Shown here one piece after another: positions 13,676 to 34,483 of a stretch of 64,000 nucleotides of DNA (positions are counted from its first letter, which is position 1; every line of letters begins with the position of its first letter). Source of the DNA: Nitrospina sp. LS_NOB (lineage in GTDB: Bacteria; Nitrospinota; Nitrospinia; Nitrospinales; VA-1); the NCBI GenBank assembly GCA_001542995.1, contig LFLA01000024.1, positions 68,499 through 132,498 on the forward strand. Direction: 5' to 3'. The notes beneath the pieces are model-generated. The model saw only the letters and a list, made by a program, of their open reading frames with translations. It was not told where the DNA came from and did not search any database. Made by a program: the position numbers and the translations under genes.

Positions 13676-13680
<5 letters not shown>

Positions 13681-15037
13681 CTTTTTCGATAAGCTCGATT
13701 ATTTTCCGGATGGACATCTCTAACTCATTGTTTTCTTTAACTAAATTAGATATTTTTTTGTAGGAGAAAATCACTGTTGTATGATCCTTGCCGCCAAACT
13801 GACGACCGATTTCAGGAAGTGAGGATTTAGTGTGTTCCCGACATAAAAACATGGCTATTTGGCGGGGTACAGAAATATCCCGAGTGCGCCTTTTAGATTT
13901 AATATCAGATACCTTAAGGTCGTAATATCCGGCAACAGTTTTAAGGATGTTGCTAATGGTGAAATGTTTGTTTTTATCTAGCGTAAAATCTTTTAACACT
14001 TCTTTGGTTAATTCTAAATCAAGCTTTCTATACGTAAAAGAGGAAAACGCGATGACCCTAAGTAAGAAACCTTCTAACTCGCGAATATTGGATTTTATGT
14101 TACCAGCTATGAAAATAGCGACGTCTTGCGAAATAGTTTTTTGGTGAAAGTCGGCCTTTTTATACAGAATAGCAACCTTCGTTTCTAGGTCGGGAGGATT
14201 GATATCTGCCACCAGCCCGGACTCAAACCGGGATCGTAACCGTTCTTCCATCTTCTGAATATCTTTAGGATACTTGTCGCTGGAAATAACGAGTTGTTTA
14301 TGTGATTCGTAAAGAGTATTGAAGGTATAAAAAAACTCCTCTTGAGTCCTTTCCTTGCCGGCAATGAATTGAATATCATCGACTAGCAGGACATCTAAGG
14401 GACGATACCTTTTGCGGAATAATGGCATTTTATCTTTTTTAATGGATTCAATTAGGTCAACGGTGAAGCTTTCGGCAGAAATATAACGGACTCGGGATTC
14501 GGGGTTGTTCTCACAAATTTTATTACCAATGGCATGTAGAAGATGTGTTTTACCTAACCCTACTGCCCCATACAAAAATAAAGGGTTATAAGCGACGGCT
14601 GGGTGGGTGGCAATGGCCAAAGCCGCTGCATGGGCAAACTGGTTGCTCGAACCAACCACGAAATTTGAAAAATTGTATTTAGGATTGAGAGAGGACGAAA
14701 CGCTAAGGCTCTCAACGGGCTTAATAACCAAGGTTTCCTCAACTTCTTTGTCTTGTCCCGTTTGGGCTATAGTTTCAGATTCTATGCAAAAGTCTACCAG
14801 GATCGGTTTTTCTGTGACAGATTTCAAAGTACTTTCGATCAGGTCCCGATAATTCTCTATGAGGCACTTTCTATAAAATTGATTTGGAACTGCGATGGTC
14901 ATCAAACCATCATCGAGAGTCCTGGGATAGGTGGGCGAAAACCAAGTGGTATAGCTTTCGGGCAGTATTTGCTCCTCAATTTTTTCTAAACATTTTTTCC
15001 AAAGGGCTTCTTTGACTTCCATAGTTTTTGGAAACAA
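13676..15037 (-). CDS. dnaA: Chromosomal replication initiator DnaA
   Basis: YNPLFLYGAVGLGKTHLL, LLVDDIQF, RELEG and GRQFGGKDHTTV motifs. Confidence 0.98.
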
Positions 15038-15514
15038 ATAATGAGTTGTGGGGGAAATTGGCGTTCAATATATAAAAGAAGAGCCCTAAAAGCAACCTCA
15101 AAAACCAGGAATAAGATCAAAGCCCTCCAACTTCAACATTAACAAAAGTTTTTAAAACAGATTTTTTTATATGTTTGCTTAATCAAGAGTCTGCCCATGA
15201 GTCTTCTCTCCACACTTAATTTTTAAAGGTTAGAAACCACACTATTCCAGTAGGTTAGGGAATCCGTACCTTGTTCCGGGTTACATAAGTTAAGAGGGTT
15301 GGTTTGCGAGTCCTTTTGGAAGAAGAATTTTTAACCAAAATGGCTTTCTAGCACACTAATTTAAAATTAGCCCATTAGTTCTAATTTTCCTATCAAGCCT
15401 TTTGCGCACTGGGCTTTGCCTGCCTCAGGAAAAGGTCGGAATTTTCCGGCCTTTTCCTCCCCCCAACAATAATAAATTAACAAAACATTTATTGTTAACT
15501 GGAGATATATCTGC

Positions 15515-15748
15515 ATGAATTGGTTGAATGGAAAAAAAACGTATATTATTTCCGCTCTGATGGCCATGGCCTCGCTGGTAAGTTTAGTAACAGGCGATCT
15601 AACACTGCTGGAATTTTTAAATGGCGAGCAGATGATAAACCTGTTCGAGGCCTTAGGGCTCACTACTTTGCGGGCTGGAATCCAGCAAAACCAGAAAGAT
15701 ACAACCCACGAGATCTTAAAAAATATTCACTTTCCCTATGCAGGTTAA
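15515..15748 (+). CDS. Small phage membrane protein (holin-like)
   Basis: 77 aa with GKKTYII..TM..GLTTLRAGI pattern, common among small phage membrane proteins. Confidence 0.6.
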   Translation: MNWLNGKKTYIISALMAMASLVSLVTGDLTLLEFLNGEQMINLFEALGLTTLRAGIQQNQKDTTHEILKNIHFPYAG

Positions 15749-15789
15749 TGACCCGGTCATGAATAGCTCGCTTTTATCAGATCAAACTC

Positions 15790-16143
15790 ATGAGTCTTGA
15801 ATTATTTCGGGCTCTGACGCCCTGGGTCTCGCTCTTACTTTTGCTGGGACTTGGAACTATCGGCTGGTTGATACGTTGGATGTTGGCAGAAAACCTTCGC
15901 CGGTTCCGTGACTTTAAGGAAAACCTCGAAGAGATTGAAACTTCCCTTCGCGATCTTGAGCGGGGGAGACAGGACGATCAAAAATACCTGTTTGAGCAAT
16001 ACGTCGATAAGAAAGCCTTTTATGTTGCTGTCGGGAAAAATGAAGCTTTGATAAGCAGGATATTTAAACAATTAAACGAACTTGCAAAATCAGTAAACCA
16101 GATTGTCGGTGCTTTGAATGCAGGAGAAAATAGAAATGTCTAA
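15790..16143 (+). CDS. Phage membrane/coiled-coil protein (DUF2730-like position)
   Basis: N-terminal TM helix followed by a coiled coil; lies before the terminase genes as in Mu-like phages. Confidence 0.6.
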   Translation: MSLELFRALTPWVSLLLLLGLGTIGWLIRWMLAENLRRFRDFKENLEEIETSLRDLERGRQDDQKYLFEQYVDKKAFYVAVGKNEALISRIFKQLNELAKSVNQIVGALNAGENRNV

Positions 16144-16582
16144 ACCCTTATCTGAAAATTTGGATCGCCTTGATGAATTGCTCTCAGGGCTTGAGGAGCT
16201 AAAAGAAATTGTACGGAATTTGATCCATGATTTTCCTGACGATTTAAAAATTCATCGGGTTTACTGTGCCTATGCAGGAAAAATTTTAGAAACTATTAAG
16301 ACCCGCATTCAGGTTGAAAACATAGATCCAGACTGGCTTCTCTCAGAAGCCTTAAAAACCGTCGCTCTTTTTCTTGCAGAAAATGGAGAGATCAGCGCCG
16401 CAAACCTTGTGGGGAACCACGTAGAAGAAATTGAGGAAAAAGTTAAACAAATATGGTGGCAACCCGAAGAAACAAAAGTATCGAGCCTAAATATAAAACA
16501 GGAACCTTCATTAAAGAGCTCCTCAAACCATTTGGTAAAACCAGCCAAAAGCAGAAAGAAAAACGAAGAACCCGTGCAATAA
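16136..16582 (+). CDS. Putative terminase small subunit
   Basis: Helical protein directly upstream of and overlapping terL; RBS (GGAG) before ATG 16136. Function inferred from position only. Confidence 0.5.
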   Translation: MSKPLSENLDRLDELLSGLEELKEIVRNLIHDFPDDLKIHRVYCAYAGKILETIKTRIQVENIDPDWLLSEALKTVALFLAENGEISAANLVGNHVEEIEEKVKQIWWQPEETKVSSLNIKQEPSLKSSSNHLVKPAKSRKKNEEPVQ

Positions 16583-18045
16583 AAGAACTTAAATATTTTG
16601 CCCAAAAATATTTTCCCCACCATTTGACGGAAAAACCCTCATCCATGCATGAGGACATGTTTTTGCGTTATCAACAACAAATTATTAATTCCGCGTCATC
16701 GGGAAAAGGAGGAAAAGAAGCGCTGGCCGCTCCACGCGGCAACGCCAAATCGACTCTCAGTACGCTTATTTTGCCGCTCTGGTGTATTGCCGGGGCTAGA
16801 AAAAAATTTATCGTTATCATTTCTGATACCACGGAGCAAGCTGAAGAGTTTCTTGATGGCATAAAATCAGAACTGGAAGCTAATAAAAGGTTGATGGAAG
16901 ATTTCCCAGAAGCCTGTGGTCCGGGCCGCACCTGGAAAGCCGCCAAACTCATTACGGAAAATGGTATTGCCGTCCGGTGCTGGGGAAAGCGTAAAAGATT
17001 GCGGGGAGCCAGGCATGGAAACCGTCGGCCCGACCTGGTTATTTGTGACGACCTTGAGGACGATGAGAACATCGATTCTCCCGAACAACGCGAGAAGGAC
17101 CGTAAATGGTTCTTCAAAGCGGTGATGAAGATTGGTGGCCGGTACACGGTTTATATCGTTATCGGCACCCTTCTTCATTACGATTCTCTGCTAGCTCGAT
17201 TATTAAAACGGCCAGGCTGGAACGGCAAAAAATGGCAGGCGGTTATTCGCTGGTCTTCTTCCCAACTTTGGGAAAAGTGGGAAGGGCTTTATACCTCCCG
17301 CTCTCTTGATGCGGAGCAAAAAGCCGAGGAGTTCTTTTGCCAGCATCAAAAAGAAATGTTGCGGGGCACCTCTGTTCTCTGGCCGGAAGTAGAAAACTAT
17401 TATTATCTGATGGCTATGAAGGTTTCAGATGGCCCGGCATTTTTTGACTCTGAAAAACAGAATGAACCGGTGAACCCTGATGACTGTTTGTTTCAGGAAG
17501 AGTGGTTCCGTTTTGCCCCGGAACCCGTGCCTACTCAAAAAGAAACGAGGTTCTACTGTTCCATTGACCCATCCATGGGTTCATCTTCCAACAAGGCCGA
17601 TCCGTCAGCCATTCTTATTGGGGCACTTCAGCCCGATGGAATCATCGATATCATCCAGGCTGACATTCAGAAGCGGCATCCGGATTCCATCATGGAAGCC
17701 CTTTTCGATTATCACCGTCAATACCAGTTTGAAAGGATCGCTATTGAAGAAGTCCAGTTCCAGCAACTGTTTAAGGACCAGGTAATTAAAGAAGGGGCTA
17801 AACGGAAATTGTATCCCCCGGTTGAAGGGGTACGGCCCATCAATGATAAAACTCTGCGGATTTCGAAATTACAACCTCATATTAAAAATGGTCTGATCCG
17901 GTTTCGCAGAAACCAGACGGTTTTTTTGGAGCAATTGAAATATTTTCCCAAAGCCAGTCACGATGACGGGCCTGATGCTCTGGAGATGCTCTTTAATCTT
18001 ATCAACAACGGTTTTAACGGGCCTCGTATCCGTCGAGTCGCCTGA
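16453..18045 (+). CDS. terL: Terminase large subunit (Mu gp28-like)
   Basis: YFAQKYFPH, Walker A APRGNAKST, Walker B RPDLVICDDLEDDEN, nuclease IDPS ... HDDGPDALE. Confidence 0.92.
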   Translation: MVATRRNKSIEPKYKTGTFIKELLKPFGKTSQKQKEKRRTRAIKELKYFAQKYFPHHLTEKPSSMHEDMFLRYQQQIINSASSGKGGKEALAAPRGNAKSTLSTLILPLWCIAGARKKFIVIISDTTEQAEEFLDGIKSELEANKRLMEDFPEACGPGRTWKAAKLITENGIAVRCWGKRKRLRGARHGNRRPDLVICDDLEDDENIDSPEQREKDRKWFFKAVMKIGGRYTVYIVIGTLLHYDSLLARLLKRPGWNGKKWQAVIRWSSSQLWEKWEGLYTSRSLDAEQKAEEFFCQHQKEMLRGTSVLWPEVENYYYLMAMKVSDGPAFFDSEKQNEPVNPDDCLFQEEWFRFAPEPVPTQKETRFYCSIDPSMGSSSNKADPSAILIGALQPDGIIDIIQADIQKRHPDSIMEALFDYHRQYQFERIAIEEVQFQQLFKDQVIKEGAKRKLYPPVEGVRPINDKTLRISKLQPHIKNGLIRFRRNQTVFLEQLKYFPKASHDDGPDALEMLFNLINNGFNGPRIRRVA

Positions 18046-18106
18046 AAAAACAATGGGTATATTTTTATTAATCAAATGTATTTCCTTTTATTAAAGGAGT
18101 TTTCTT

Positions 18107-18373
18107 ATGACCGATCCCTTCAAAAGCTATGAAACGGCTCCTACCAGCCCGGCCCGTAAGGGTTTTTCCATAACGCCTGATGATTCAGTGGATCTTTCGA
18201 TAACCTGCCGGGCTCTGTTTGTGGGTGGAGCAGGGGACATCGCTGTTATTCTTGCCGCTGATTCTTCTTCGATCATGTTTAAAAATATTCCTGCAGGAGT
18301 TGTTTTGCCAATTTCTGTTAAACGGGTGGAGGCGACTCTTACCACAGCAACCGATATTTTGGGGCTTTACTGA
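18107..18373 (+). CDS. Head-spike base protein, RcGTA Rcc01079-like
   Basis: DPF....TSPA..FSITPDDS.DL...RALFVGGAGDIAV....FKNIPAG..LPISVKRV.AT.TTATDILGL matches the Rcc01079 family pattern as recalled. Confidence 0.8.
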   Translation: MTDPFKSYETAPTSPARKGFSITPDDSVDLSITCRALFVGGAGDIAVILAADSSSIMFKNIPAGVVLPISVKRVEATLTTATDILGLY

Positions 18374-19065
18374 TGGAGATTGGGCTAGGAAACAGCCTTG
18401 CGACTGCGCGCGGGATTTCGGGGCCTTCTGGCCTTAACCCAGATTATGTAAAACTGCGACTTCATTTTGATTCTGATTTTTCGGATTCGTCGATTCATGA
18501 CAGGCTGCCGACCCTTATCGGCTCGTCAACAATTGATACGGTAGAAAAGGTGTTTGGCGATGGGTCTATGAAAAATCCGGGCCTTAGCGACATGATATCT
18601 TTCCCGGCCAGTTCTGATTTCAATATGGGTGATTCTATCCCTTTTCAATTGAGCTGGAGGATGCGTAGGACATCTGGGAGTCAAGCGGTATTTTTTGCGG
18701 TGGGTAACTATAACAATGGTTACATACTTGCCTCAAATGGGAATTGGACTGCGGTGGAAATTGGGTCGAACAATGCGGTGCAAGGCTCATGGCCTTATTC
18801 AGTCCTAATTAATACATGGGTCGCTTATAGGTTCAATCACGATGGAGCTAATAATTATAGATGGTATGTAAATGGAGTTTTACTAAGCATTAAAGTAATT
18901 ACTGGAATGGTTGACGCGTCTCTTCCATTTGTAGTAGGTGGGCGGCTCACTAATACGGGTATGGCCGGAAACTTTGATGAAGTTCTTTTTGAAAAACACG
19001 CTGATTTGGTTGTCACGACTGACCTGACTTATGAAGTGGAAACCACAGCATTCCCGGATCCATAA
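18373..19065 (+). CDS. Head-fibre-like protein with LamG/concanavalin-A-like domain
   Basis: Coupled to the spike-base gene; N-terminus MEIGLGNSL; LamG-like ...NTWV...WYVNGVL...VGG...GNFDE signature. Confidence 0.7.
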   Translation: MEIGLGNSLATARGISGPSGLNPDYVKLRLHFDSDFSDSSIHDRLPTLIGSSTIDTVEKVFGDGSMKNPGLSDMISFPASSDFNMGDSIPFQLSWRMRRTSGSQAVFFAVGNYNNGYILASNGNWTAVEIGSNNAVQGSWPYSVLINTWVAYRFNHDGANNYRWYVNGVLLSIKVITGMVDASLPFVVGGRLTNTGMAGNFDEVLFEKHADLVVTTDLTYEVETTAFPDP

Positions 19066-19092
19066 GGTCCTTTTATGTGTTTTTAAATTTTT

Positions 19093-19305
19093 ATGGAGAA
19101 AAATAAATTGAAAACAGGATATCAGAAAACGGTTCTTGAATCATTCGACACCGAAAATGTTTTTAGTGGTTCTTCAGATTCCACACCTCTGGAATACATT
19201 AACGATCCGATTATTGAAAAACTTTTGATACAGCAGGAAAAGATAAACCGGTTTAAAGATATCTGTAACCCAGGTATTTCTTATGGTTTTTATCATAATG
19301 GGTAA
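19093..19305 (+). CDS. Hypothetical protein
   Basis: 70-aa AT-rich ORF within the cluster. Confidence 0.35.
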   Translation: MEKNKLKTGYQKTVLESFDTENVFSGSSDSTPLEYINDPIIEKLLIQQEKINRFKDICNPGISYGFYHNG

Positions 19306-19368
19306 ACTCCATAGGTGTTTCACTATCCAATTCTCGCTGAGTTCCATTAAAAAAATAACAATTAAATT

Positions 19369-20577
19369 ATGAAATTTATCGACTGGTTCAAAAACATCCA
19401 GAAAAAAGAAAGCGCGGTGACCCGGGCTATGACCTTATGGTTGCCAGCAGGGCAGGGGGTCTCCAGCAAAACCGATTATGCTTCTTTGGCAAAAGAAGGG
19501 TTCACCCAGAACAGTGTTGTGTTTTCCTGCGTTAAAGAGATTGCTTCGGCAAGCGCTGGCATTCCCTGGGTTTTATTCAGGCAATTGCCCGATGGGGGAC
19601 GACGGGAGGTGTCTCAGCATCCTCTGCTTGATTTGATTGCCCGGCCTAATCCGCTCCAGGGAAAATATGAACTGATTGAATCCATGGTCTGCCATCTCTA
19701 TCTTTCCGGAAATGCTTATATGGAGTCTGTAGGTCCGCCCAGTGGTGGTCCTTCCGGTTTACCTAAAGAACTTTATGTTCTCAGGCCCGATCGGATGAAA
19801 GTCATTCCCGATGTGGTTCATTATGTCGGTGGTTATGAGTATACGGTATCCGGACAGAAGGTGGAGTTCCCTCGTGAGCAAATATTACATTTGAAACTGT
19901 TTAACCCTCTTGATGACTGGTATGGTTTGTCTCCGGTTCAGGTTGCGGCTTTGGCCATTGACAAACTCAACTCAGGCGATAAATGGAATGCATCGCTGTT
20001 GCAGAACGCGGCGGTTCCTTCCGGAGCATTAACCTGCAAGCAACGCCTGACGGACGATCAGTTTGACCGCTTGAAAACCGAAATGCGACGGCAGATTCAG
20101 GGAGTCAACAATGCCCGCGAACCTCTGCTTCTCGAACAGGATCTTGAATGGAAAGAGTTGGGGATTTCCCCCAAAGATATGGATTGGATTGAAGGTCTGA
20201 AAATGAGCGCTCTCCAGGTGGCGCAGGTGTTCAATGTTCCTCCGGAGTTGGTGGGGCTGGGTCCGGCCACGTACCAGAACCGCAAGGAAGCGCGCAAGGC
20301 TTTATATACCGAAGTGGTTTGCCCATTTCTCAACCGGCTTCGCGATGGTTTTAATAATTGGCTGGTTCCGCGATTCGGCGAAAATCTGATTTTGGACTAC
20401 GACAAGGACGGTATTGAGGCTTTGTCGGAAGACCAGGAAGCGTTGTGGAACCGGGTTAATCAAAGCGAATTTTTAACGGTAAACGAAAAACGCCGCATGG
20501 TTGGATTCGATGATGTGGCCGACGGGGATAAGATTTTGCTTAACCACCGTCCAAATTCAAGGAGTGAATCATCATGA
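19369..20577 (+). CDS. Phage portal protein, HK97 family (RcGTA-like)
   Basis: HPLLDLIARPNP, LSGNAY, ELYVLRPDRM, DDWYGLSP, PSGAL and FNVPPEL motifs. Confidence 0.95.
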   Translation: MKFIDWFKNIQKKESAVTRAMTLWLPAGQGVSSKTDYASLAKEGFTQNSVVFSCVKEIASASAGIPWVLFRQLPDGGRREVSQHPLLDLIARPNPLQGKYELIESMVCHLYLSGNAYMESVGPPSGGPSGLPKELYVLRPDRMKVIPDVVHYVGGYEYTVSGQKVEFPREQILHLKLFNPLDDWYGLSPVQVAALAIDKLNSGDKWNASLLQNAAVPSGALTCKQRLTDDQFDRLKTEMRRQIQGVNNAREPLLLEQDLEWKELGISPKDMDWIEGLKMSALQVAQVFNVPPELVGLGPATYQNRKEARKALYTEVVCPFLNRLRDGFNNWLVPRFGENLILDYDKDGIEALSEDQEALWNRVNQSEFLTVNEKRRMVGFDDVADGDKILLNHRPNSRSESS

Positions 20578-21266
20578 AAGAAATTAAATCGTTTCCTTTT
20601 AAGCTGGATGCGCTGAATGATGCCGGAGAGTTTTCCGGCTATGCTTCCACTTTTGGGTCTGTCGACCTGGGCGGGGATGTGGTGGAAAAGGGAGCTTATA
20701 AAAAAACCCTGAAGGAAAGCCAGGGGCGCATCCCTATTCTTGACCATCATGACCCCACTCGGCAGATTGGCTGGAACGTTCAGGCGCATGAAGACGAGCG
20801 TGGTTTGTTCGTGCGCGGACTGCTTGATCTCAATGTCAGTGCGGCACGGGAACGCCATAGCCTCATGAAAATGGCACAGAGCATCGGCGGACGCACAGGG
20901 CTTTCTATCGGATTTAGAACGATCAAGGAGGAACCGGACCGGAAGCGCCCCGACATTCGCCGGTTGAAGGAAATCCAGCTCATGGAATACAGCGTTGTCA
21001 CGTTCCCCATGAACCCGCAGGCGGGAGTGCTCAGCGTAAAAGCGAAAGAACAATTGATTGGCCAGTTTTTGCAAAATGCCGTGGGGTTGGACAAACGACA
21101 AACCCAACTGGCAATCATTAATTTTAAATCACTCCTTTCTAAAAGCAACGAGCCGGGTTTTGCCCACTCGGGTAGATTGAAAATGGGAGCCGATATCCCG
21201 GACTGGGAGCCGTTACGGCTGTCCCTGTGCCGACTTTTAAGCTCTGTAAAGGGAGCCCTGAACTAA
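20574..21266 (+). CDS. HK97-family prohead protease
   Basis: FSGYASTFG..DLGGDVVEKGAY, HHD..IG, GLSIGF and EYSVVTFPMNP motifs. Confidence 0.95.
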   Translation: MKEIKSFPFKLDALNDAGEFSGYASTFGSVDLGGDVVEKGAYKKTLKESQGRIPILDHHDPTRQIGWNVQAHEDERGLFVRGLLDLNVSAARERHSLMKMAQSIGGRTGLSIGFRTIKEEPDRKRPDIRRLKEIQLMEYSVVTFPMNPQAGVLSVKAKEQLIGQFLQNAVGLDKRQTQLAIINFKSLLSKSNEPGFAHSGRLKMGADIPDWEPLRLSLCRLLSSVKGALN

Positions 21267-21369
21267 CCTCGAATTTCTAATTTTAGACCTTCCTCGGGCC
21301 AATTTATACCGTGTTTGTTCCCTATTATATAAGGTCTTCTCGTAAGGGGCCGGGTGAGGGTTTTTTTTA

Positions 21370-22581
21370 TTGAAGGAGATTGAAATGGAAGAGATTAAAC
21401 AGCTTGTTGAGGAACTCAATCAGGCATTTATAGAACATAAGGTAAAAAACGATCAGCGCTTGAACGAAATCCAGAAAAAGGGTTATGCCGATCCTGTTCT
21501 TGAGGAGCAGGTTGATCGTGTGGCGAAAGAGATCCAAAAGCTGGCTGAGGTTAAGGAACGACTTGAGCGGGTAGAAACCAAGCTAGAGCGCCCGATTCTG
21601 GGCAAGCACGAAAGCGATAAGACGGAGCCCTTTTCCAGCGAAAGAAAAGAAGCCGTGATTCATTACCTCAGAAAGGGAGAAGGGTTTTTGACCCCACAGG
21701 AAATCAAACTTCTCGCCACCGACAGCGATCCGGATGGCGGGTATTGGATGACTTCGGAAATATCTCAACAGGCCATTCAAAAGGTTTATGAAACTTCACC
21801 CATGCGCAATATTGCTACGGTTGAGACCATCTCAACCGATGCTCTGGAAATTCCTGAAGACCTTAACGAAGCTGATAGTGGATGGGCTTCGGAACGGTCT
21901 GCCCGCCCTGAAACCAGTACTCCGCAGATTGGCGTACGGAGAATTCCTGTGCATGAGCTTTACGCAATGCCGAAAGCGACACAGACCTTACTGGATGATT
22001 CACGTATTGATGTCGAGTCCTGGTTGTCGGTAAAAATTGCCGACAAGATGGTGCGCATCGAAAACTCCGCCTTCATCAATGGGGATGGTGTCGGAAAACC
22101 GCGCGGCATATTGACTTATTTGCCAGGCACTACCAATCCCGGCCAGGTGCAACAGGTCAATTCCGGAAATGCCAGCTCTTTGACCGCTGATGGCCTGCGC
22201 TCGTTATTTTACACTTTGAAGGGTTCATATATTCCCAATGCCCGGTGGTTGATGTCACGAAGTGCTATTGAAGAAGTTTCCAAGCTGAAAGACTCTGCCG
22301 GTTCTTACATCTGGCAACCGGGGTTTCAGGAGGGAGAACCGCAAACCTTGCTGGGTCATCCGATTGAGCGCATGGAAGATATGCCGCAAGTGGCAGCTAA
22401 TTCCATGTCTGTAGCGTTTGGGGATTTCAGGCAGGCTTATACCATTGTTGACCGGATGGGATTGAGGGTTCTTCGCGATCCTTTCAGCTCCAAACCTTTC
22501 GTGCTGTTTTATACCACGAAGCGCACTGGTGGTGATGTGGCTAACTTTGAAGCCTTCGCCATCCAGAAAACAGCCGCATAA
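21370..22581 (+). CDS. Major capsid protein, HK97 fold (RcGTA g5-like)
   Basis: DGGYW, HELYAMPKATQTLLDDS, AFINGDGVGKPRGIL, AFGDFRQAYTIVDR and LRDPFSSKPFVLFYTTKRTGG motifs. Confidence 0.97.
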   Translation: MKEIEMEEIKQLVEELNQAFIEHKVKNDQRLNEIQKKGYADPVLEEQVDRVAKEIQKLAEVKERLERVETKLERPILGKHESDKTEPFSSERKEAVIHYLRKGEGFLTPQEIKLLATDSDPDGGYWMTSEISQQAIQKVYETSPMRNIATVETISTDALEIPEDLNEADSGWASERSARPETSTPQIGVRRIPVHELYAMPKATQTLLDDSRIDVESWLSVKIADKMVRIENSAFINGDGVGKPRGILTYLPGTTNPGQVQQVNSGNASSLTADGLRSLFYTLKGSYIPNARWLMSRSAIEEVSKLKDSAGSYIWQPGFQEGEPQTLLGHPIERMEDMPQVAANSMSVAFGDFRQAYTIVDRMGLRVLRDPFSSKPFVLFYTTKRTGGDVANFEAFAIQKTAA

Positions 22582-22600
22582 AAAAACCTAACCCCCTCAA

Positions 22601-22705
22601 TACCCCTTCGGGGCACGAAGATTTAGGAAAAATATCACGTCGACCTTGCCAGGGGGAAGTTTTTAAACTCCTCCCCTGTCAAGGGGAGGCGGGGAGGGGT
22701 TAAAA
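22601..22705. repeat. Composite host REP (family A plus CCTCCCC/GGGGAGG hairpin) inside the phage cluster
   Basis: TACCCCTTCGGGGCACGAAG...AATATCACG; the GGGGGAAG..TTTT..AAACTCCTCCC segment also occurs near 4630. Confidence 0.75.
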
Positions 22706-22729
22706 ATAAAACTCTTTTCGGAGAAAATA

Positions 22730-23107
22730 ATGAAAGATCTCAAAAACCATATAGACGCGGTCAACTCCATTAATCCGGATGATTACACCGCAACTATTAA
22801 CGGACTGGGCATTGACCTTCAGGGCTTCGAAGGTTCTGCCGTTGTTTTCAGTGTCGGCACGGTTACGGACGGAACCCATACCCCGAAGATTGAAGAGTCG
22901 GATGATAATTCTAACTGGATGGATGTAGCCTCGATCGACCAGGAGGGACTGTTGTCCGATTTAGCTTCTGACACCAATCAACGTGTAGGATATAAAGGCA
23001 CGAAGCGTTATCTACGTGCGGTATTGACCGTTTCCGGCGCTACCATTGGGGCCCAGGCCGCCAGTCTGGTGCTGAGAGGAATCCCGCATCGGGCACCTGT
23101 CAACTAA
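22730..23107 (+). CDS. Phage protein following the capsid gene (possible decoration/cement protein)
   Basis: beta-rich 125-aa ORF with GIDL..G...ESDD..W..VGYKG.KRYLR pattern. Confidence 0.65.
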   Translation: MKDLKNHIDAVNSINPDDYTATINGLGIDLQGFEGSAVVFSVGTVTDGTHTPKIEESDDNSNWMDVASIDQEGLLSDLASDTNQRVGYKGTKRYLRAVLTVSGATIGAQAASLVLRGIPHRAPVN

Positions 23108-23111
23108 TCAA

Positions 23112-23155
23112 TCCTTTTCCCTTTTTTAATTTGAGGGGAAGGGGAATTTTTTTGG
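23112..23155 (+). terminator. Possible intrinsic terminator
   Basis: Imperfect TCCTTTTCCC/GGGGAAGGGGA hairpin followed by T7. Confidence 0.35.
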
Positions 23156-23164
23156 ACATTATTT

Positions 23165-23374
23165 ATGAAAATTAAAATGCTCAAAACCCGGCAAGGTTCT
23201 CCGGATGGAATCGCCGTCAACACTTATATCAGTGGTGAAATGGTGGATGTTCCGGATGAGTTAGCGCGTGTTTTCATTCAACAACGCTGGGCGCGCAAGG
23301 TCACCAAACCGACAACGAAAGACCGGGGCAAGGCCCCTGAAAACAAAAACACTGTAAAAAAACGAAAACCTTAA
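23165..23374 (+). CDS. Small phage head-region protein
   Basis: 69 aa, MKIKMLK...SPDG...Y..GE.VDVPDELA..FI..WA. Confidence 0.6.
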   Translation: MKIKMLKTRQGSPDGIAVNTYISGEMVDVPDELARVFIQQRWARKVTKPTTKDRGKAPENKNTVKKRKP

Positions 23375-23386
23375 CAGAAAAATAAA

Positions 23387-23989
23387 ATGGCTTTAATAAT
23401 AAGTGTTCCGCCTGTTTCGGAGCCGGTTTCTCTGGCCGAGGCTAAAATCTATTTGCGTATTACGGATAGCGATGATGACGCGTTGATCAATTCTCTGGTT
23501 ACCGCTATCCGGCAAAAGGCCGAAACCTGGACCCGACGTTTGTTCATCACCCAGACTTGGACCTTGTGGCTGGATTGGGCGCCGGAAGGCACGATGCTTC
23601 CCATCCCGCTCTCACCTTTGCAGTTGGTAGTTGATATTAAATCCTATGATTCCGCCAATACGGTCAGCACTTTCGATGCCAGTAAATATCTGGTAGACGG
23701 CGTGTCCACTCCCGGTCGAGTTGGCTTAAATGATGGACAGACTTGGCCTAATGCTCTAAGAGCAATGAATGCGCTGGAAATAAAATTCGTGGCCGGTTTC
23801 GGGGATGCCTCCAAAGTTCCGGAAACGATCAAACAGGGCATTCTGCAATGGGTCAAACTGTTGTTCGCCAACAAATCCAAACTGTATGAATCCAATGAAT
23901 CCACTTCTGGACTGCTAGAATTGAACCGCGTACCCATTCCACCCGCTGTGATGGTTCTGTGGGAACCCTATCGAGTTTTCAAAATATAA
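23387..23989 (+). CDS. Head-tail connector/adaptor (gp6/phiE125 gp8-like)
   Basis: PP.SEPVSLAEAKIYLRI..DDDALI..L...AE..T.R.FITQTW; GFG..VP..IKQGIL. Confidence 0.9.
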   Translation: MALIISVPPVSEPVSLAEAKIYLRITDSDDDALINSLVTAIRQKAETWTRRLFITQTWTLWLDWAPEGTMLPIPLSPLQLVVDIKSYDSANTVSTFDASKYLVDGVSTPGRVGLNDGQTWPNALRAMNALEIKFVAGFGDASKVPETIKQGILQWVKLLFANKSKLYESNESTSGLLELNRVPIPPAVMVLWEPYRVFKI

Positions 23990-26894: not shown

Positions 26895-27187
26895 ATAGCT
26901 TCCTCCTGATAAGGGGGATTTCAATGGACCCCTCTTTCTTAAAGTACCCGTGCCGGGCACGAGGGCTTTGGAACAATATCACGAGGGGCTGGGGTGATTT
27001 ACCCTCCTCCTTGACGGGCCTCCTCTTTCTCTTTCACCTTAAGGGTGAGAGGGAAGGGGGGATTACCTTCTTATCACTGATTTCTTTTCCGCATTCTTGG
27101 CAGGGGATCAGAGCCATGGCTGTTTCTCCATATTGGTTTACGGGTTTTAGCATAGCTGATTAACAGTTTTAACGAATCTCTTTTTCA

Positions 27188-27300
27188 GGAATTTAATTAT
27201 GGCCAGTCCAGTTAACGTAAGCGCAAAAATAACAGTTGGGTTTGAAGATCAGTTCAGCGGGCAAGCCTGTCAGGCATTTGAAACCTGTGCATGTCTATAG
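27188..27300 (+). pseudogene. Duplicated 5' end of the tape-measure gene (33-codon stub)
   Basis: 27188-27283 closely matches 27661-27756 (MASPVNVSAKITVGFEDQFSG/AQACQAFE), then stops at 27298-27300. Confidence 0.8.
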
Positions 27301-27319
27301 GAAATAGGGGCAGGATGAA

Positions 27320-27541
27320 CTATAAGCCGAATATGCGAGTTCCCACCCAATAAAGTCCTAAGGCGGAAACAAAAGAGATGGATAAAAAGATAATTAATGA
27401 AGATAATACTTTTAGAATCTTTTCTGACCCGGTCATTTCAGAAAAACTTTTTTTTATGCGAATAGGTACGCCGCAATGCGGACAGGTTGATGCCTTGTCG
27501 CTGATTTGTTTGTCACATTCCGGACAGGGGAACAGGGCCAT
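27320..27541 (-). CDS. Double zinc-ribbon membrane protein (moron-like)
   Basis: CPEC...CPHC plus a C-terminal TM helix; AT-rich and antisense to the cluster. Confidence 0.75.
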   Translation of the reverse strand: MALFPCPECDKQISDKASTCPHCGVPIRIKKSFSEMTGSEKILKVLSSLIIFLSISFVSALGLYWVGTRIFGL

Positions 27542-27671
27542 TTGTTAGAACCTTCTTTCAGGTGCGGAAGAGTATTTTAGCGGTAACATTTATTGCTTCT
27601 TTATAAATCAAGTGCAGTTATTCTAACATTAAATTTGCTATAGCAATTTTATTCTTTAAGGGAATTTAAAT

Positions 27672-28790
27672 ATGGCCAGTCCGGTTAATGTAAGTGCAAA
27701 AATAACAGTCGGGTTTGAAGACCAGTTCAGCGCGCAAGCCTGTCAGGCATTTGAAATCGTAAAAAAATGCGCTGAGGACGCCTTTCAAGTAATGGACTCG
27801 TTCCCCAAAGCATTGGCACCCGGTGGTTTTCAGGATGATGTTGAATTATTTTCGCAATCGGTGGAAAAACTCGAGAGTTCCATAAACCGCATGAATGAGA
27901 GCCTGATAAAGTCACAGGAAGAGGCCACCCGGTTTGGTGAGTCTTTGGAAAACCCCAGCAAGTTTGTGGCTGACTTTTGGGAAAGCTTGAAACAAGGGAA
28001 TACTTTTGCGGTCACTACCGCCATAGCTGGCTTGACTGTTGGGTTAGCTGGCTTAGCAACATTAAACGCTCCATTAGCTGGACTTGGTGCGGTTATTTTA
28101 GGTGTAGGTTTAAACGCTGCATTTTTGGCGTCACTTTTGAATGATGTCGAGGAATCACTGAAAGCGTTGGAGGCTCAAAAACTAATTGAACCTAAAATCA
28201 CCGAAGATTCGATCTTTCAACTGGAAAGATTTTCTTCTGCGCTTGAGCCGTTAAGAAATCCGCCGGACTTCCAGCTCAAAGTTGATTTGCTGGATAACGC
28301 CACGGGAAGTGGCGCAAAAATTCGCCAGCAACTGGAAGAAATGTTTAAGTCTCCCATCACCCAGACGATCGTCACCGAACGTGTGGATGCTGTTTTAAAT
28401 TTTTCAAAATCGCCTGGGCGGTCCTCGTCCGATCCATTCAACTCCTTTTTTGATGATGGATTGCCGGAATTTCTGACATCGAGCCCGGACCTGACTGGGT
28501 TTAACAAGTCGGTGGGATTCTCCCCGGCTAAACCCGCTCTTCCCAGTTTTGCCAGCGGCATCGACCGGGTTCCACGGGACATGCCGGCCCTTATCCATAA
28601 GGATGAAGCGGTTCTCCCCAAAACCCAGGCAGAAGATTTTCGCCGTGGCGGCTCCAGCGGGATGAGCATTGAAAACCTTAATTTCAGCTTCAATGTCGCC
28701 AACGGCGCCAAGCTCGACCGGGAGGAGTTTCGCAATATGGCTTTTATGATGCGTGATGAACTCAAACGCCTCGACCGCCGAATCGATTAG
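27672..28790 (+). CDS. Short tape measure-like protein
   Basis: Helical N-half with a hydrophobic A/G/L-rich stretch; C-terminal FASGIDRVPRDMPALIHKDEAVLP motif typical of tape-measure C-termini. Confidence 0.8.
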   Translation: MASPVNVSAKITVGFEDQFSAQACQAFEIVKKCAEDAFQVMDSFPKALAPGGFQDDVELFSQSVEKLESSINRMNESLIKSQEEATRFGESLENPSKFVADFWESLKQGNTFAVTTAIAGLTVGLAGLATLNAPLAGLGAVILGVGLNAAFLASLLNDVEESLKALEAQKLIEPKITEDSIFQLERFSSALEPLRNPPDFQLKVDLLDNATGSGAKIRQQLEEMFKSPITQTIVTERVDAVLNFSKSPGRSSSDPFNSFFDDGLPEFLTSSPDLTGFNKSVGFSPAKPALPSFASGIDRVPRDMPALIHKDEAVLPKTQAEDFRRGGSSGMSIENLNFSFNVANGAKLDREEFRNMAFMMRDELKRLDRRID

Positions 28791-28998
28791 CCGCTAGGCT
28801 GGGTTGCCATCCTGTGCGTCATCGCGAGCGACTGTAAGAAGCGCGGCGATCCAGGTTTGTGATATTCCCTCATTAGCCTTCATGCCCTGCAAGGGTATTT
28901 TTGGATTGCGCTGTCGCCTTTGGCTCCTCGCAATGACGACCGGGCCATGGTTTTTTATTGGAAGAAGTTTTTTTATATAGTGATTTGGAGAATGTTTT

Positions 28999-29379
28999 AT
29001 GAGTTTTGGTTTTTATTATCCGACAAAGTCCGCACCGACGGCGCAATGGGTGCCTGTTACACAGCCGGAGTACCCGGCGGGGGAGGTCCTGGATTATCCT
29101 GAACAGATCAATTCGGTCACTGCCGGTGGCACGCTTTATGTGCAGGAGAAGGGTGGCCAGCGCCAGACCTTTCAGTTTAATTTTTCCCGAATCAACCAAG
29201 CTGACCGAGACAGCGCCCAAACCTTTTTTGATACCGTTAAAAAATCATTCAAGACCTTTGAATTGGAGGACCAGAATGCAACCCTGCACACCGTACGGTG
29301 GATGAACGGATTAAATTTTCAGCTGGTCCTCTTTGGCAAATATTCCGGGACTATTGATCTCAGGAAAGAACCGGCGTAG
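28999..29379 (+). CDS. Distal tail (Dit-like) protein
   Basis: Follows the tape measure; TAGG..YVQ......F.F...FFDTV...F pattern. Confidence 0.6.
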   Translation: MSFGFYYPTKSAPTAQWVPVTQPEYPAGEVLDYPEQINSVTAGGTLYVQEKGGQRQTFQFNFSRINQADRDSAQTFFDTVKKSFKTFELEDQNATLHTVRWMNGLNFQLVLFGKYSGTIDLRKEPA

Positions 29380-29537
29380 CTGCCGGGGGCAAATTGCAAT
29401 AACTCTTTCAGGCGAGCAAAAAGTTGTCTGGGCCTGAGAAATCTTTGCCCAATCACCACCGGGCGTTGCCTGGCCAGCGTCACGCTGGTCACGCCGAGTG
29501 GGTGGAGGTTTTCCGTAAATAAATAAAGGAGATAAAT

Positions 29538-34397: not shown

Positions 34398-34446
34398 TTA
34401 TCCCGAATTCGCTGTTTTTTTGTAATTTGCTCTTCGGCGAAACAGT

Positions 34447-34483
34447 CTCGCTTTTCTGCTTTATCGACTTACGCAAAGGTCTC
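34447..34483. repeat. Single end of the GAGACCTTTGCATAA MITE family
   Basis: ...TCGACTTACGCAAAGGTCTC matches the ends at 56232, 56536 and 63252. Confidence 0.6.

What the first reader, a model, noticed from the sequence alone, without database searches (positions are those of the whole stretch)
18107..19065. RcGTA-type head-spike gene pair embedded between terL and portal
The 88-aa protein follows the Rcc01079 (spike base) pattern almost end to end. The coupled 230-aa gene starts MEIGLGNSL, recalling the Rcc01080 anchor peptide (M.ALGLGL), and carries a LamG/ConA-like lectin domain. In R. capsulatus these genes lie outside the main cluster and mediate binding to capsular polysaccharide. Here they are inside it, with a different putative sugar-binding domain, which suggests capsule-targeted delivery to kin cells.
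Basis: partly seen in the sequence, partly recalled or inferred. Interest (0 to 1): 0.62.

Follow-up and report, generated by a model that had tools for sequence, protein, structure and literature searches.

The report
Capsid head-spike pair with lectin fibre
Two coupled genes in a phage-like particle gene cluster of a marine nitrite-oxidising bacterium (Nitrospinota) encode a small protein that most likely forms a socket on the capsid corners and a fibre with a sugar-binding-type head that plugs into it. This is a correctly spotted but fairly common phage module, and its binding domain is swapped between close strains.

Summary
Both ORFs are real: 18107-18373 (88 aa) and 18373-19065 (230 aa). 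They share one base (TGATG) and lie between terL and portal.

**Base protein.** The 88-aa protein is a full-length homologue of the RcGTA head-spike base Rcc01079 (PDB 6TB9: E 3e-7 alone, 4e-13 as a profile).

**Fibre.**
- It starts with an alternating hydrophobic/small peptide (MEIGLGNSL), like the RcGTA fibre anchor IALGLGLGL.
- Residues 1-18 are modelled with low confidence, consistent with a flexible linker.
- Residues 25-230 form one LamG/ConA-like jelly roll (AF2 pLDDT 87; phage LamG proteins TM 0.76-0.81).

**Capsid.** The major capsid protein's best solved relative is the RcGTA capsid protein (E 5e-74).

**Context.** The host is Nitrospinota. The ~18-kb head-tail cluster sits beside dnaA in every related genome fetched, co-diverges with gyrA/gyrB/dnaA, and shows dN/dS of 0.02-0.26 (head genes 0.02-0.11). 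That pattern is GTA-like. The fibre diverges about ten times faster, and its core is replaced between close strains while the anchor is kept.

**Novelty is modest.**
- At least 406 IMG/VR loci carry the base.
- It often lies inside head modules, once in the same terL-pair-portal order.
- Phage P8625 already pairs a base with a ConA-like protein.

Sugar binding and delivery to kin cells remain untested.

The parts
18094..18099 (+). Shine-Dalgarno-like AAGGAG, 7 nt before the base gene's ATG
   Evidence: Read directly from the sequence. The fibre gene has only a GGGG run upstream, which would fit lower fibre output by translational coupling (inference).
18107..18373 (+). Head-spike base protein (88 aa), Rcc01079 / phrog_12296 family
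   Evidence: PDB 6tb9_E3 E 3e-7. Profile E 4.3e-13 end to end, and 8cjz_h 'Spike Base Protein' E 2.8e-7. phrog_12296 E 5e-23. 72-94% identical in Nitrospinota orthologues. dN/dS 0.10-0.28.
18371..18375 (+). TGATG stop/start overlap coupling base and fibre
   Evidence: Sequence. The same one-base overlap occurs in all Nitrospinota loci with an ATG fibre start called, in Parvibaculaceae, and in phages P8625, RcapNL and MW202426.
18373..18399 (+). Fibre N-terminal anchor peptide MEIGLGNSL (alternating hydrophobic/small residues)
   Evidence: Compare the RcGTA fibre residues 2-10, IALGLGLGL, which form a five-point star in the base pentamer. Orthologues read MEIGFGMGL, MKLGTGLGL and MDIGMGMSL; phage partners read MIGLGLDLSL and MGLGLGIGLGL. 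The motif is unique among 148 window ORFs. It is retained when the rest of the gene is swapped.
18400..18444 (+). Probable flexible linker (residues 10-24)
   Evidence: AF2 pLDDT is below 50 for residues 1-18. These columns are variable in the family alignment.
18445..19065 (+). LamG/ConA-like jelly-roll head domain of the fibre (residues 25-230)
   Evidence: AF2 pLDDT 87.1, pTM 0.84. Foldseek BFVD: LamG-like jelly-roll phage proteins, E 1e-12 to 6e-14, TMq 0.76-0.81. PDB: ConA-like jelly rolls, TMq 0.60-0.65. PF13385 hits 13 of 17 relatives. The family profile finds 8487 proteins.
18513..18964 (+). Hypervariable core of the fibre gene
   Evidence: blastn alignment to L098/L099 (81-87% nt identity on the flanks) breaks exactly here. 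In run X4 a contig about 96.5% identical on the flanks replaces 18414-19094 with 690 unrelated bases. Fibre amino-acid identity is 41-51% against 85-92% for terL and portal. Tree path lengths are about 10 times those of the housekeeping genes.
19093..19305 (+). Small ORF (70 aa) of unknown function between fibre and portal; probably not part of the spike
   Evidence: No Pfam or PHROG hit. A 65-66 aa ORF is present in most orthologous loci, but there is no match in L007 and none in L046.
21370..22581 (+). HK97-fold major capsid protein, the presumed docking surface of the base pentamer
   Evidence: PF05065 E 5.5e-82. The best solved relative is the RcGTA major capsid protein Rcc01687, E 5e-74 over residues 52-403.
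16453..18045 (+). Large terminase (upstream neighbour)
   Evidence: phrog_38 E 3.9e-115.
19369..20577 (+). Portal protein (downstream neighbour)
   Evidence: PF04860 E 8.4e-83.

Best explanation
The two genes encode a capsid head spike of the RcGTA type.

**Proposed mechanism.**
- Five copies of the 88-aa protein form a small jelly-roll pentamer on each capsid penton. This is inferred from homology to Rcc01079.
- One copy of the 230-aa protein inserts its N-terminal alternating hydrophobic/small peptide (M-E-I-G-L-G-N-S-L) into the five hydrophobic pockets of that pentamer. This is inferred from the conserved motif and gene coupling.
- A linker of about 15 residues, modelled with low confidence and so possibly flexible, holds out one LamG/ConA-like beta-sandwich.
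- That domain makes the first, reversible contact with a cell-surface polysaccharide. The fold is shown; the ligand is inferred.
- The strong ribosome-binding site (RBS) on the base gene and the one-base TGATG overlap would favour an excess of base over fibre (inferred).

**Specificity.** The binding core evolves fast and is exchanged as a cassette between close strains, while the anchor stays constant. It therefore looks like the specificity determinant.

**The particle.** It is encoded by an ~18-kb head-tail cluster that is vertically inherited next to dnaA/oriC in Nitrospinota. The cluster is most probably a domesticated, GTA-like element.
For: **Base protein.**
- Homology to Rcc01079 and phrog_12296.
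- RcGTA cryo-EM describes a base pentamer plus one fibre whose residues 2-10 (IALGLGLGL) form a star in the pentamer.
- The capsid protein's best solved relative is the RcGTA capsid protein, E 5e-74.

**Fibre.**
- The anchor-like N-terminus is conserved in Nitrospinota orthologues, Parvibaculaceae, and phages P8625, RcapNL and MW202426. About a third of the IMG/VR partner ORFs I read also show it.
- The motif is rare otherwise.
- The one-base overlap is conserved.
- The AF2 model shows a low-confidence N-terminus plus a confident beta-sandwich.
- The fold is LamG/ConA-like; PF13385 hits relatives.
- The RcGTA spike fibre binds capsule.

**Variability.** Hypervariable core and cassette swap.

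**The cluster.**
- Same position beside dnaA-gyrB-gyrA in 11 related loci.
- Same tree topology as the housekeeping genes, with similar or shorter branches.
- dN/dS 0.02-0.11 for the head genes, similar to gyrB and dnaA.
- No integrase or replication genes; etfBA-rsmG-parA follow.
Against:
- One of the five anchor positions is Asn, not hydrophobic.
- Rcc01079 Glu12, which helps bind a cation at the capsid interface, aligns to Thr13 here.
- The fibre body has no detectable sequence similarity to any solved chain.
- The 230-aa protein itself misses the Pfam threshold.
- LamG domains can also bind proteins.
- Database records label this family 'tail fiber protein'.
- No expression data were found.
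- GTA function is not demonstrated, and a CI-like HTH/S24 repressor lies next to the cluster.
Confidence: 0.75

Rival explanations
1. The pair is a tail fibre or tail accessory rather than a head spike, as the database label 'tail fiber protein' implies.
For: phrog_12296 and several phage records call the base 'tail fiber protein'. In P8625, RcapNL and MW202426 the pair lies after the tail genes or near the lysis genes.
Against: - The only solved relatives are capsid spike bases (Rcc01079; 8cjz 'Spike Base Protein'). I did not trace where the 'tail fiber' label in the records comes from.
- Here the pair sits among head genes, with an RcGTA-like capsid protein.
- In several IMG/VR contigs the base lies between portal, capsid and adaptor genes.
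Confidence: 0.07
2. It is a head spike, but of an ordinary prophage (active or cryptic). The spike would then serve phage adsorption during infection, not gene transfer to kin.
For: - The base family is a widespread phage module, with at least 406 IMG/VR loci.
- IMG/VR lists fragments of this very element as viral (L018, L019).
- A CI-like HTH/S24 repressor is adjacent.
- No particle or DNA-content data exist.
Against: - The cluster has the same chromosomal position next to dnaA in all 11 related loci.
- It co-diverges with gyrA/gyrB/dnaA with equal or shorter branches.
- dN/dS is 0.02-0.11 for the head genes.
- It is only about 18 kb of head-tail genes with no integrase, replication or recognisable lysis module, and housekeeping genes flank it on both sides.
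Confidence: 0.25
3. The LamG head does not recognise the recipient cell. It would instead tether particles to an environmental matrix such as biofilm or sponge-host glycans, or it would act only as a capsid decoration or stabiliser.
For: - The best DNA holder of the window is a sponge metagenome.
- The same LamG_3 domain type is repeated in giant proteins of 2,000-6,600 aa.
- In L046 the partner of the base is a GDSL esterase.
- RcGTA spikes are not essential for transfer: loss of either gene cuts activity by about two-thirds.
Against: - Strain-level cassette replacement and 41-51% identity between lineages are typical of receptor-binding proteins that track a variable cell surface.
- The RcGTA counterpart binds the producer species' own capsule.
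Confidence: 0.15
4. The two ORFs are expressed as one fusion protein by a -1 frameshift, as was once proposed for rcc01079-rcc01080.
For: - The fibre frame is -1 relative to the base frame and is open for 17 codons before its ATG.
- A T_TTG_GGG run lies there.
- Hynes et al. proposed a frameshift for rcc01079.
Against: - RcGTA cryo-EM resolves the fibre from residue 2 as a separate chain inside the base pentamer.
- The Met-start and anchor peptide are conserved in all homologues.
- T_TTG_GGG is not a canonical slippery heptamer (my own knowledge).
Confidence: 0.03

Closest known systems
RcGTA head spike: Rcc01079 (GhsA, base) + Rcc01080 (GhsB, fibre), Rhodobacter capsulatus (PDB 6TB9/6TBA/6TSU/6TUI)
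   Same: - The base is homologous end to end (E 4.3e-13 with a profile).
- Gene order is base then fibre.
- The fibre N-terminus has alternating hydrophobic/small residues.
- The partner capsid protein is closely related (E 5e-74).
- The presumed role is polysaccharide adsorption.
   Different: - The genes lie inside the structural cluster between terL and portal, not at a separate locus beside capsule genes.
- The fibre is 230 aa with one LamG domain. Rcc01080 has 325 aa, and I found no sequence similarity between the two bodies.
- Glu12 of the base is Thr here.
- One anchor position is Asn.
- The host phylum is Nitrospinota.
- The tail genes (347-aa tube, 963-aa distal protein) have no sequence match to RcGTA tail proteins.
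Verrucomicrobia phage P8625 gp23/gp24
   Same: A base homologue (43% identity, E 2e-11) is followed, with a one-base overlap, by a partner that starts MIGLGLDLSL and is annotated as ConA-like lectin/glucanase superfamily.
   Different: The partner is 584 aa. The pair lies after the tape-measure and tail-fibre genes of a bona fide phage.
Rhodobacter phage RcapNL gp29/gp30
   Same: A base homologue (40% identity) is followed, with a one-base overlap, by a partner that starts MGLGLGIGLGL.
   Different: The partner is 144 aa. The pair lies after the lysis genes, next to the integrase region of a temperate phage.
IMG/VR contig IMGVR_UViG_3300035002_000021 (L046)
   Same: It has the same order terL - base - partner - portal - protease - capsid, with portal 42% and capsid 40% identical to the window's.
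   Different: The partner is a 350-aa GDSL/SGNH esterase with a weaker anchor motif (MPGLSLAEV). It is not from Nitrospinota, and the nature of the contig is unknown.
Parvibaculaceae (Alphaproteobacteria) base + fibre pairs (L013, L014)
   Same: The base is 47-48% identical. The coupled 254-aa partner starts MTANLGLGLW.
   Different: The two genes are isolated among housekeeping genes, as in R. capsulatus. The partner had no Pfam hit.

Membership tests
Rcc01079-type head-spike base (phrog_12296) | Full-length sequence homology to the solved base protein | tested here: met
   phmmer E 3e-7, residues 3-84 against 2-81 of 84. Profile E 4.3e-13. phrog_12296 E 4.8e-23, residues 1-87 against 1-85 of 86.
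Rcc01079-type head-spike base (phrog_12296) | Six-stranded jelly-roll fold forming a pentamer on capsid pentons | not tested
The fold is inferred from homology only.
Rcc01079-type head-spike base (phrog_12296) | Cation-coordinating Glu12 at the capsid interface (a reinforcing feature in RcGTA, not necessarily a defining one) | tested here: not met
   Glu12 aligns to Thr13. The Nitrospinota motif is L-T-S-P-A against L-E-S-P-A in RcGTA and Parvibaculaceae.
Rcc01079-type head-spike base (phrog_12296) | Co-occurrence with an RcGTA-like HK97 capsid protein to dock on | tested here: met
   The capsid protein's best PDB hit is Rcc01687, E 5e-74.
Head-spike fibre (Rcc01080-like, defined by its mode of attachment) | Gene immediately downstream of the base and translationally coupled to it | tested here: met
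   The one-base TGATG overlap is conserved in orthologues and in phage pairs.
Head-spike fibre (Rcc01080-like, defined by its mode of attachment) | N-terminal peptide with five alternating (iso)leucine-type residues | tested here: inconclusive
   Four of five positions are hydrophobic (M1, I3, L5, N7, L9). Orthologues have five of five, for example MEIGFGMGL. The motif is unique among window ORFs.
Head-spike fibre (Rcc01080-like, defined by its mode of attachment) | Sequence homology of the fibre body to Rcc01080 | tested here: not met
   No Rcc01080 chain appeared among the PDB hits of the protein or its profile at E<=10 and E<=1. Caveat: a deposited chain shorter than 20 residues would not be in the library.
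LamG / ConA-like lectin superfamily (PF13385 Laminin_G_3) | Pfam profile match | tested here: inconclusive
   The window protein has no hit at E<=1. 13 of 17 aligned relatives hit, best E 3.8e-12, and orthologues carry precomputed PF13385.
LamG / ConA-like lectin superfamily (PF13385 Laminin_G_3) | Beta-sandwich jelly-roll fold | tested here: met
   AF2 pLDDT 87.1, pTM 0.84. Foldseek BFVD: LamG-like jelly-roll proteins, TMq up to 0.81, E down to 5.6e-14. PDB: 412 matches at E<=0.001; those listed are ConA-like jelly-roll domains.
LamG / ConA-like lectin superfamily (PF13385 Laminin_G_3) | Carbohydrate binding | not testable with these tools
   This needs a glycan array or a cell-binding assay.
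Gene transfer agent (context of the pair) | Head-tail cluster without replication or integration genes, at a fixed chromosomal site, co-diverging with the host under purifying selection | tested here: met
   (gene content). (synteny in 11 loci). (dN/dS). (congruent trees).
Gene transfer agent (context of the pair) | Particles package host DNA and transfer it to recipient cells | not testable with these tools
   No culture, particle or transcript data. No RNA run was confirmed: the RNA search returned one run of unrecorded kind.

The most novel reading that the evidence does not exclude
The cluster is a working gene transfer agent of Nitrospinota, the first outside the known GTA lineages to carry an RcGTA-type head. 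Its head-spike fibre acts as a swappable address label. Strains exchange the LamG core behind a constant anchor, so particles adsorb preferentially to cells that display the matching surface glycan. That would give strain-level (kin) targeting of gene transfer in an uncultured group of marine and sponge-associated nitrite oxidisers.
Probability: 0.25. Interest if true: 0.8.

Novelty: new member of a known kind. Interest (0 to 1): 0.45.

Why it matters
- **Annotation.** The result corrects a widespread label. The 'tail fiber protein' of phrog_12296 is a capsid spike base. It also shows that the base plus N-terminally anchored partner is a general, modular phage cassette. Its heads vary (LamG lectin, GDSL esterase and others), and it is usually encoded within or just after the structural genes.
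- **Biology of the element.** For the Nitrospinota element, the result identifies the most likely specificity determinant. Its binding core is replaced between near-identical strains. If the element is a GTA, that locus would decide who receives DNA.
- **Practical use.** The 25-230 domain is a small, well-modelled candidate probe for surface glycans of uncultured nitrite oxidisers.

Tried and rejected
- **Single-sequence AF2 of the fibre** failed (pLDDT 32). The 17-sequence alignment was needed.
- **Direct searches with the fibre** gave nothing useful: Pfam and PDB by sequence. The fibre profile against PDB gave only insignificant hits (E 0.07 or worse) to ConA-like jelly-roll domains. I read these as fold-level resemblance only.
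- **Frameshift fusion** of base and fibre was considered and rejected (with the structure described).
- **Promoter and terminator scan** of 15000-23500 found no more sites than in shuffled sequence. There is only a weak 5-bp hairpin over the fibre's stop codon.
- **RNA evidence:** no usable RNA run was found.
- **PDB entry 8cjz** could not be traced to a paper.
- **Literature:** no paper in the library links GTAs to Nitrospinota in substance. The two searches returned a handful of papers whose titles concern other subjects, and I did not open them.
- **Own-genome search:** I could not look for extra copies or count how many Nitrospinota species carry the cluster.
- **Tail proteins:** the tube and the 963-aa protein have no PDB sequence hits. 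The RcGTA resemblance found here is limited to the capsid protein and the spike base.
- **Capsid Asp210:** its equivalence could not be settled, because I could not map the chain's sequence positions onto the paper's residue numbering.
Full report
**1. Observation**

The window holds an 88-aa ORF at 18107-18373 and a 230-aa ORF at 18373-19065 on the + strand.
- The stop of the first and the start of the second share one base (TGATG).
- The first gene has an AAGGAG ribosome-binding site 7 nt upstream. The second has only a GGGG run upstream.
- Upstream lies the large terminase (16453-18045, phrog_38 E 3.9e-115). Downstream lie a 70-aa ORF and the portal gene (19369-20577, PF04860 E 8.4e-83).

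**2. The 88-aa protein**

- It matches phrog_12296 over its whole length (E 4.8e-23).
- Among solved structures it matches the RcGTA 'Head spike base Rcc01079' (6tb9/6tba/6tsu/6tui): E 3e-7, residues 3-84 against 2-81 of 84.
- A profile of 21 orthologues raises this to E 4.3e-13. It also finds a second solved 'Spike Base Protein' (8cjz_h, E 2.8e-7).
- One difference: Rcc01079 Glu12 coordinates a cation with the capsid protein in RcGTA. It aligns to Thr13 here, and to Thr/Ser/Asn in all Nitrospinota orthologues.
- I could not fold the base, because both prediction jobs went to the fibre.

**3. The 230-aa protein**

*Direct searches.*
- On its own it has no Pfam or PDB sequence hit, and it folds poorly without an alignment.
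- Word-indexed search found five relatives at 42-50% identity, two carrying PF13385 Laminin_G_3.
- A profile search found 8487 proteins. Most are giant multi-repeat proteins that carry this domain up to 19 times.

*Fold.*
- 13 of 17 aligned family members hit PF13385.
- With that alignment AF2 gives pLDDT 87.1 and pTM 0.84. Residues 1-18 have low confidence and residues 25-230 form a beta-sandwich.
- Foldseek matches LamG-like/ConA-like jelly-roll proteins of phages (TMq 0.76-0.81, E down to 5.6e-14).
- It also matches ConA-like jelly-roll domains in the PDB, including a carbohydrate-binding domain of a GH43 arabinanase (TMq 0.60-0.65, identity 12-18%).

The PDB matches are fold-level resemblances only. 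The LamG/ConA call is confirmed.

**4. The anchor**

In RcGTA each spike is a base pentamer plus one fibre. [quoted passage not shown]

| Source | Fibre N-terminus |
|---|---|
| Window | MEIGLGNSL |
| Nitrospinota orthologues | MEIGFGMGL, MKLGTGLGL, MDIGMGMSL, MEIGLGLGL |
| Parvibaculaceae | MTANLGLGLW |
| Phage P8625 | MIGLGLDLSL |
| Phage RcapNL | MGLGLGIGLGL |
| MW202426 | MLAGLSLGMGI |

- In the window's fibre the alternating positions are hydrophobic at 4 of 5; position 7 is Asn.
- About a third of the ORFs that follow base genes in the 80 IMG/VR loci, as I read, begin with the same kind of peptide.
- The core motif occurs in the first 9 residues of only 1 of 148 window ORFs, namely this one. 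It occurs in 1.1% of all ORFs in the fetched loci, which were themselves chosen for carrying base genes.
- M1 and G6 are invariant in the family even though the proteins are only 42-50% identical overall.

The resemblance is therefore real and conserved, not a chance match.

**5. Surroundings**

*Gene content.*
- After the portal come an S78 prohead protease, an HK97 capsid protein, a gp6-like adaptor, a neck protein, a 347-aa tube protein, further tail genes and a 963-aa distal protein.
- The capsid protein's best solved relative is the RcGTA capsid protein Rcc01687 (E 5e-74, residues 52-403). A docking surface of the right type is therefore present.
- The tube and the 963-aa protein have no solved sequence relatives.

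*Flanks.*
- Upstream, on the other strand, are dnaA, gyrB, gyrA, a TPR protein and serS. The GC skew changes sign at about 14-15 kb.
- Downstream are an HTH/S24 repressor-like gene, small ORFs, then etfB, etfA, rsmG and parA.
- No integrase or replication gene was found.

**6. Host and inheritance**

- The base gene's close relatives lie in Nitrospinota MAGs: six GTDB species representatives, 72-94% identical. They also lie in marine metagenome contigs.
- The best DNA holder of the window is a sponge metagenome.
- In all 11 related loci the cluster sits in the same place next to dnaA-gyrB-gyrA, with the same gene order.
- terL, portal, protease and capsid are 85-99% identical across these genomes. 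gyrB and dnaA are 84-94% identical.
- dN/dS is 0.02-0.11 for terL, portal, protease, capsid and tube, against 0.03-0.12 for gyrA, gyrB and dnaA.
- Trees of gyrA+gyrB+dnaA and of terL+portal+protease+capsid have the same unrooted topology. Path lengths from the window are 0.057-0.17 and 0.034-0.14 respectively.

This pattern is expected of a vertically inherited, selected element. It is GTA-like, not an independently acquired prophage. The library holds no substantive paper linking GTAs to Nitrospinota. I tested the synteny, selection and co-divergence parts independently. Particle function remains unproven.

**7. The fibre is the variable part**

- Fibre identity falls to 41-51% between lineages in which the neighbouring genes stay at 85-92%. 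The base is intermediate at 72-94%.
- Path lengths are about 10 times (fibre) and 2-3 times (base) those of the housekeeping genes.
- Some lineages have two tandem LamG domains (451-462 aa).
- Against strains with 81-87% nt identity on the flanks, the nucleotide alignment breaks exactly at 18513-18964. That is the LamG core between the conserved first and last strands.
- In metagenome run X4, a contig about 96.5% identical on both flanks replaces 18414-19094 with 690 unrelated bases. It keeps the base gene and the first 13 codons of the fibre.

This is cassette replacement of a binding domain behind a constant anchor, as expected for a specificity determinant.

**8. How common is the module**

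- tblastn finds the base in 83 deposited phage genomes of diverse hosts, usually labelled 'tail fiber protein' or hypothetical.
- In P8625, RcapNL and MW202426 it is followed, with the same one-base overlap, by an anchored partner. In P8625 that partner is annotated as ConA-like. In those three phages the pair lies after the tail or lysis genes.
- Among the 80 loci fetched, the base lies at several positions in head modules: after the capsid gene, after the adaptor, or between portal and protease or capsid.
- In L046 the order is terL, base, a 350-aa GDSL esterase partner, portal (42% identical), protease and capsid (40% identical).
- In Parvibaculaceae the pair is isolated among housekeeping genes, as in R. 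capsulatus.

Being embedded in the head module is therefore common for this cassette, and the RcGTA arrangement is the unusual one. A lectin-type partner is not new either.

**9. Mechanism and verdict**

*Shown.*
- Base homology to Rcc01079.
- A conserved anchor-type N-terminus and gene coupling.
- A LamG fold.
- An RcGTA-like capsid partner.
- Fast evolution and cassette swapping of the fibre core.
- Vertical inheritance of the cluster.

*Inferred.*
- A pentameric base on pentons.
- A 5:1 base-to-fibre stoichiometry.
- Reversible binding to a surface polysaccharide.
- A GTA lifestyle.

The finding is a correct identification and a new member of a known kind of module. Its interest comes mainly from the Nitrospinota GTA-like context and from the strain-level swapping of the binding domain.

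Noticed in passing
window 22601-22641, 26920-27002, 28817-28939, 29370-29470, 34446-34483: Short intergenic elements inside and just after the cluster recruit many other contigs, at 2-5 times the local depth in four metagenome runs, with loose ends and strand-switch joints. They look like copies of a dispersed MITE/REP-like repeat.
   Followed up: no
window 27143-28435: This stretch is missing or replaced in the related strains of runs X3 and X4. It holds an antisense ORF and the 5' part of the 372-aa tail gene, which is only 42-48% identical in other loci. It is a second variable spot in the cluster.
   Followed up: no
window 33369/33370: Related strains in runs X2 and X4 carry about 650 extra bases here, between the last tail-side ORF and the HTH/S24 repressor-like gene.
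   Followed up: no
L008 10267-10608: In one complete Nitrospinales MAG the fibre ORF stops after 113 aa, and the remainder continues in another frame. This is either a real pseudogene or an assembly indel.
   Followed up: no
window 19093-19305; L007: The 70-aa ORF between fibre and portal is present in most orthologous loci as a 65-66 aa gene, 46-72% identical. It has no match in L007, the closest relative, and it has no family hit.
   Followed up: partly
window 22730-23107; L038, L051, L080: The 125-aa protein after the capsid gene (phrog_5707, function unknown) has homologues in viral contigs. There they sit between the capsid gene and the spike base gene. It could be another capsid-surface protein.
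   Followed up: no
L046 1751-2803: In this IMG/VR contig the gene coupled to the spike base encodes a GDSL/SGNH esterase (PF13472 E 1.5e-16) instead of a lectin. This suggests head spikes that modify surface polysaccharide as well as spikes that bind it.
   Followed up: partly
proteins P0033, P0039, P0046 and others: The fibre's LamG_3 domain type, with the signature first strand KLLLHFDxDFxDSS, is repeated up to 19 times in giant proteins of 2,000-6,600 aa from metagenomes. Repeats are 23-42% identical to the fibre. Their organisms and roles are unknown.
   Followed up: partly
L013/L014 9998-11022: Two Parvibaculaceae (Alphaproteobacteria) genomes carry a base plus anchored-fibre pair alone among housekeeping genes such as the EPSP synthase and histidinol dehydrogenase genes. 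This mirrors the off-cluster arrangement of RcGTA.
   Followed up: partly
window 13676-15790: The particle cluster starts divergently from dnaA, where the GC skew changes sign, so it lies at the replication origin. dnaA is followed directly by gyrB.
   Followed up: partly
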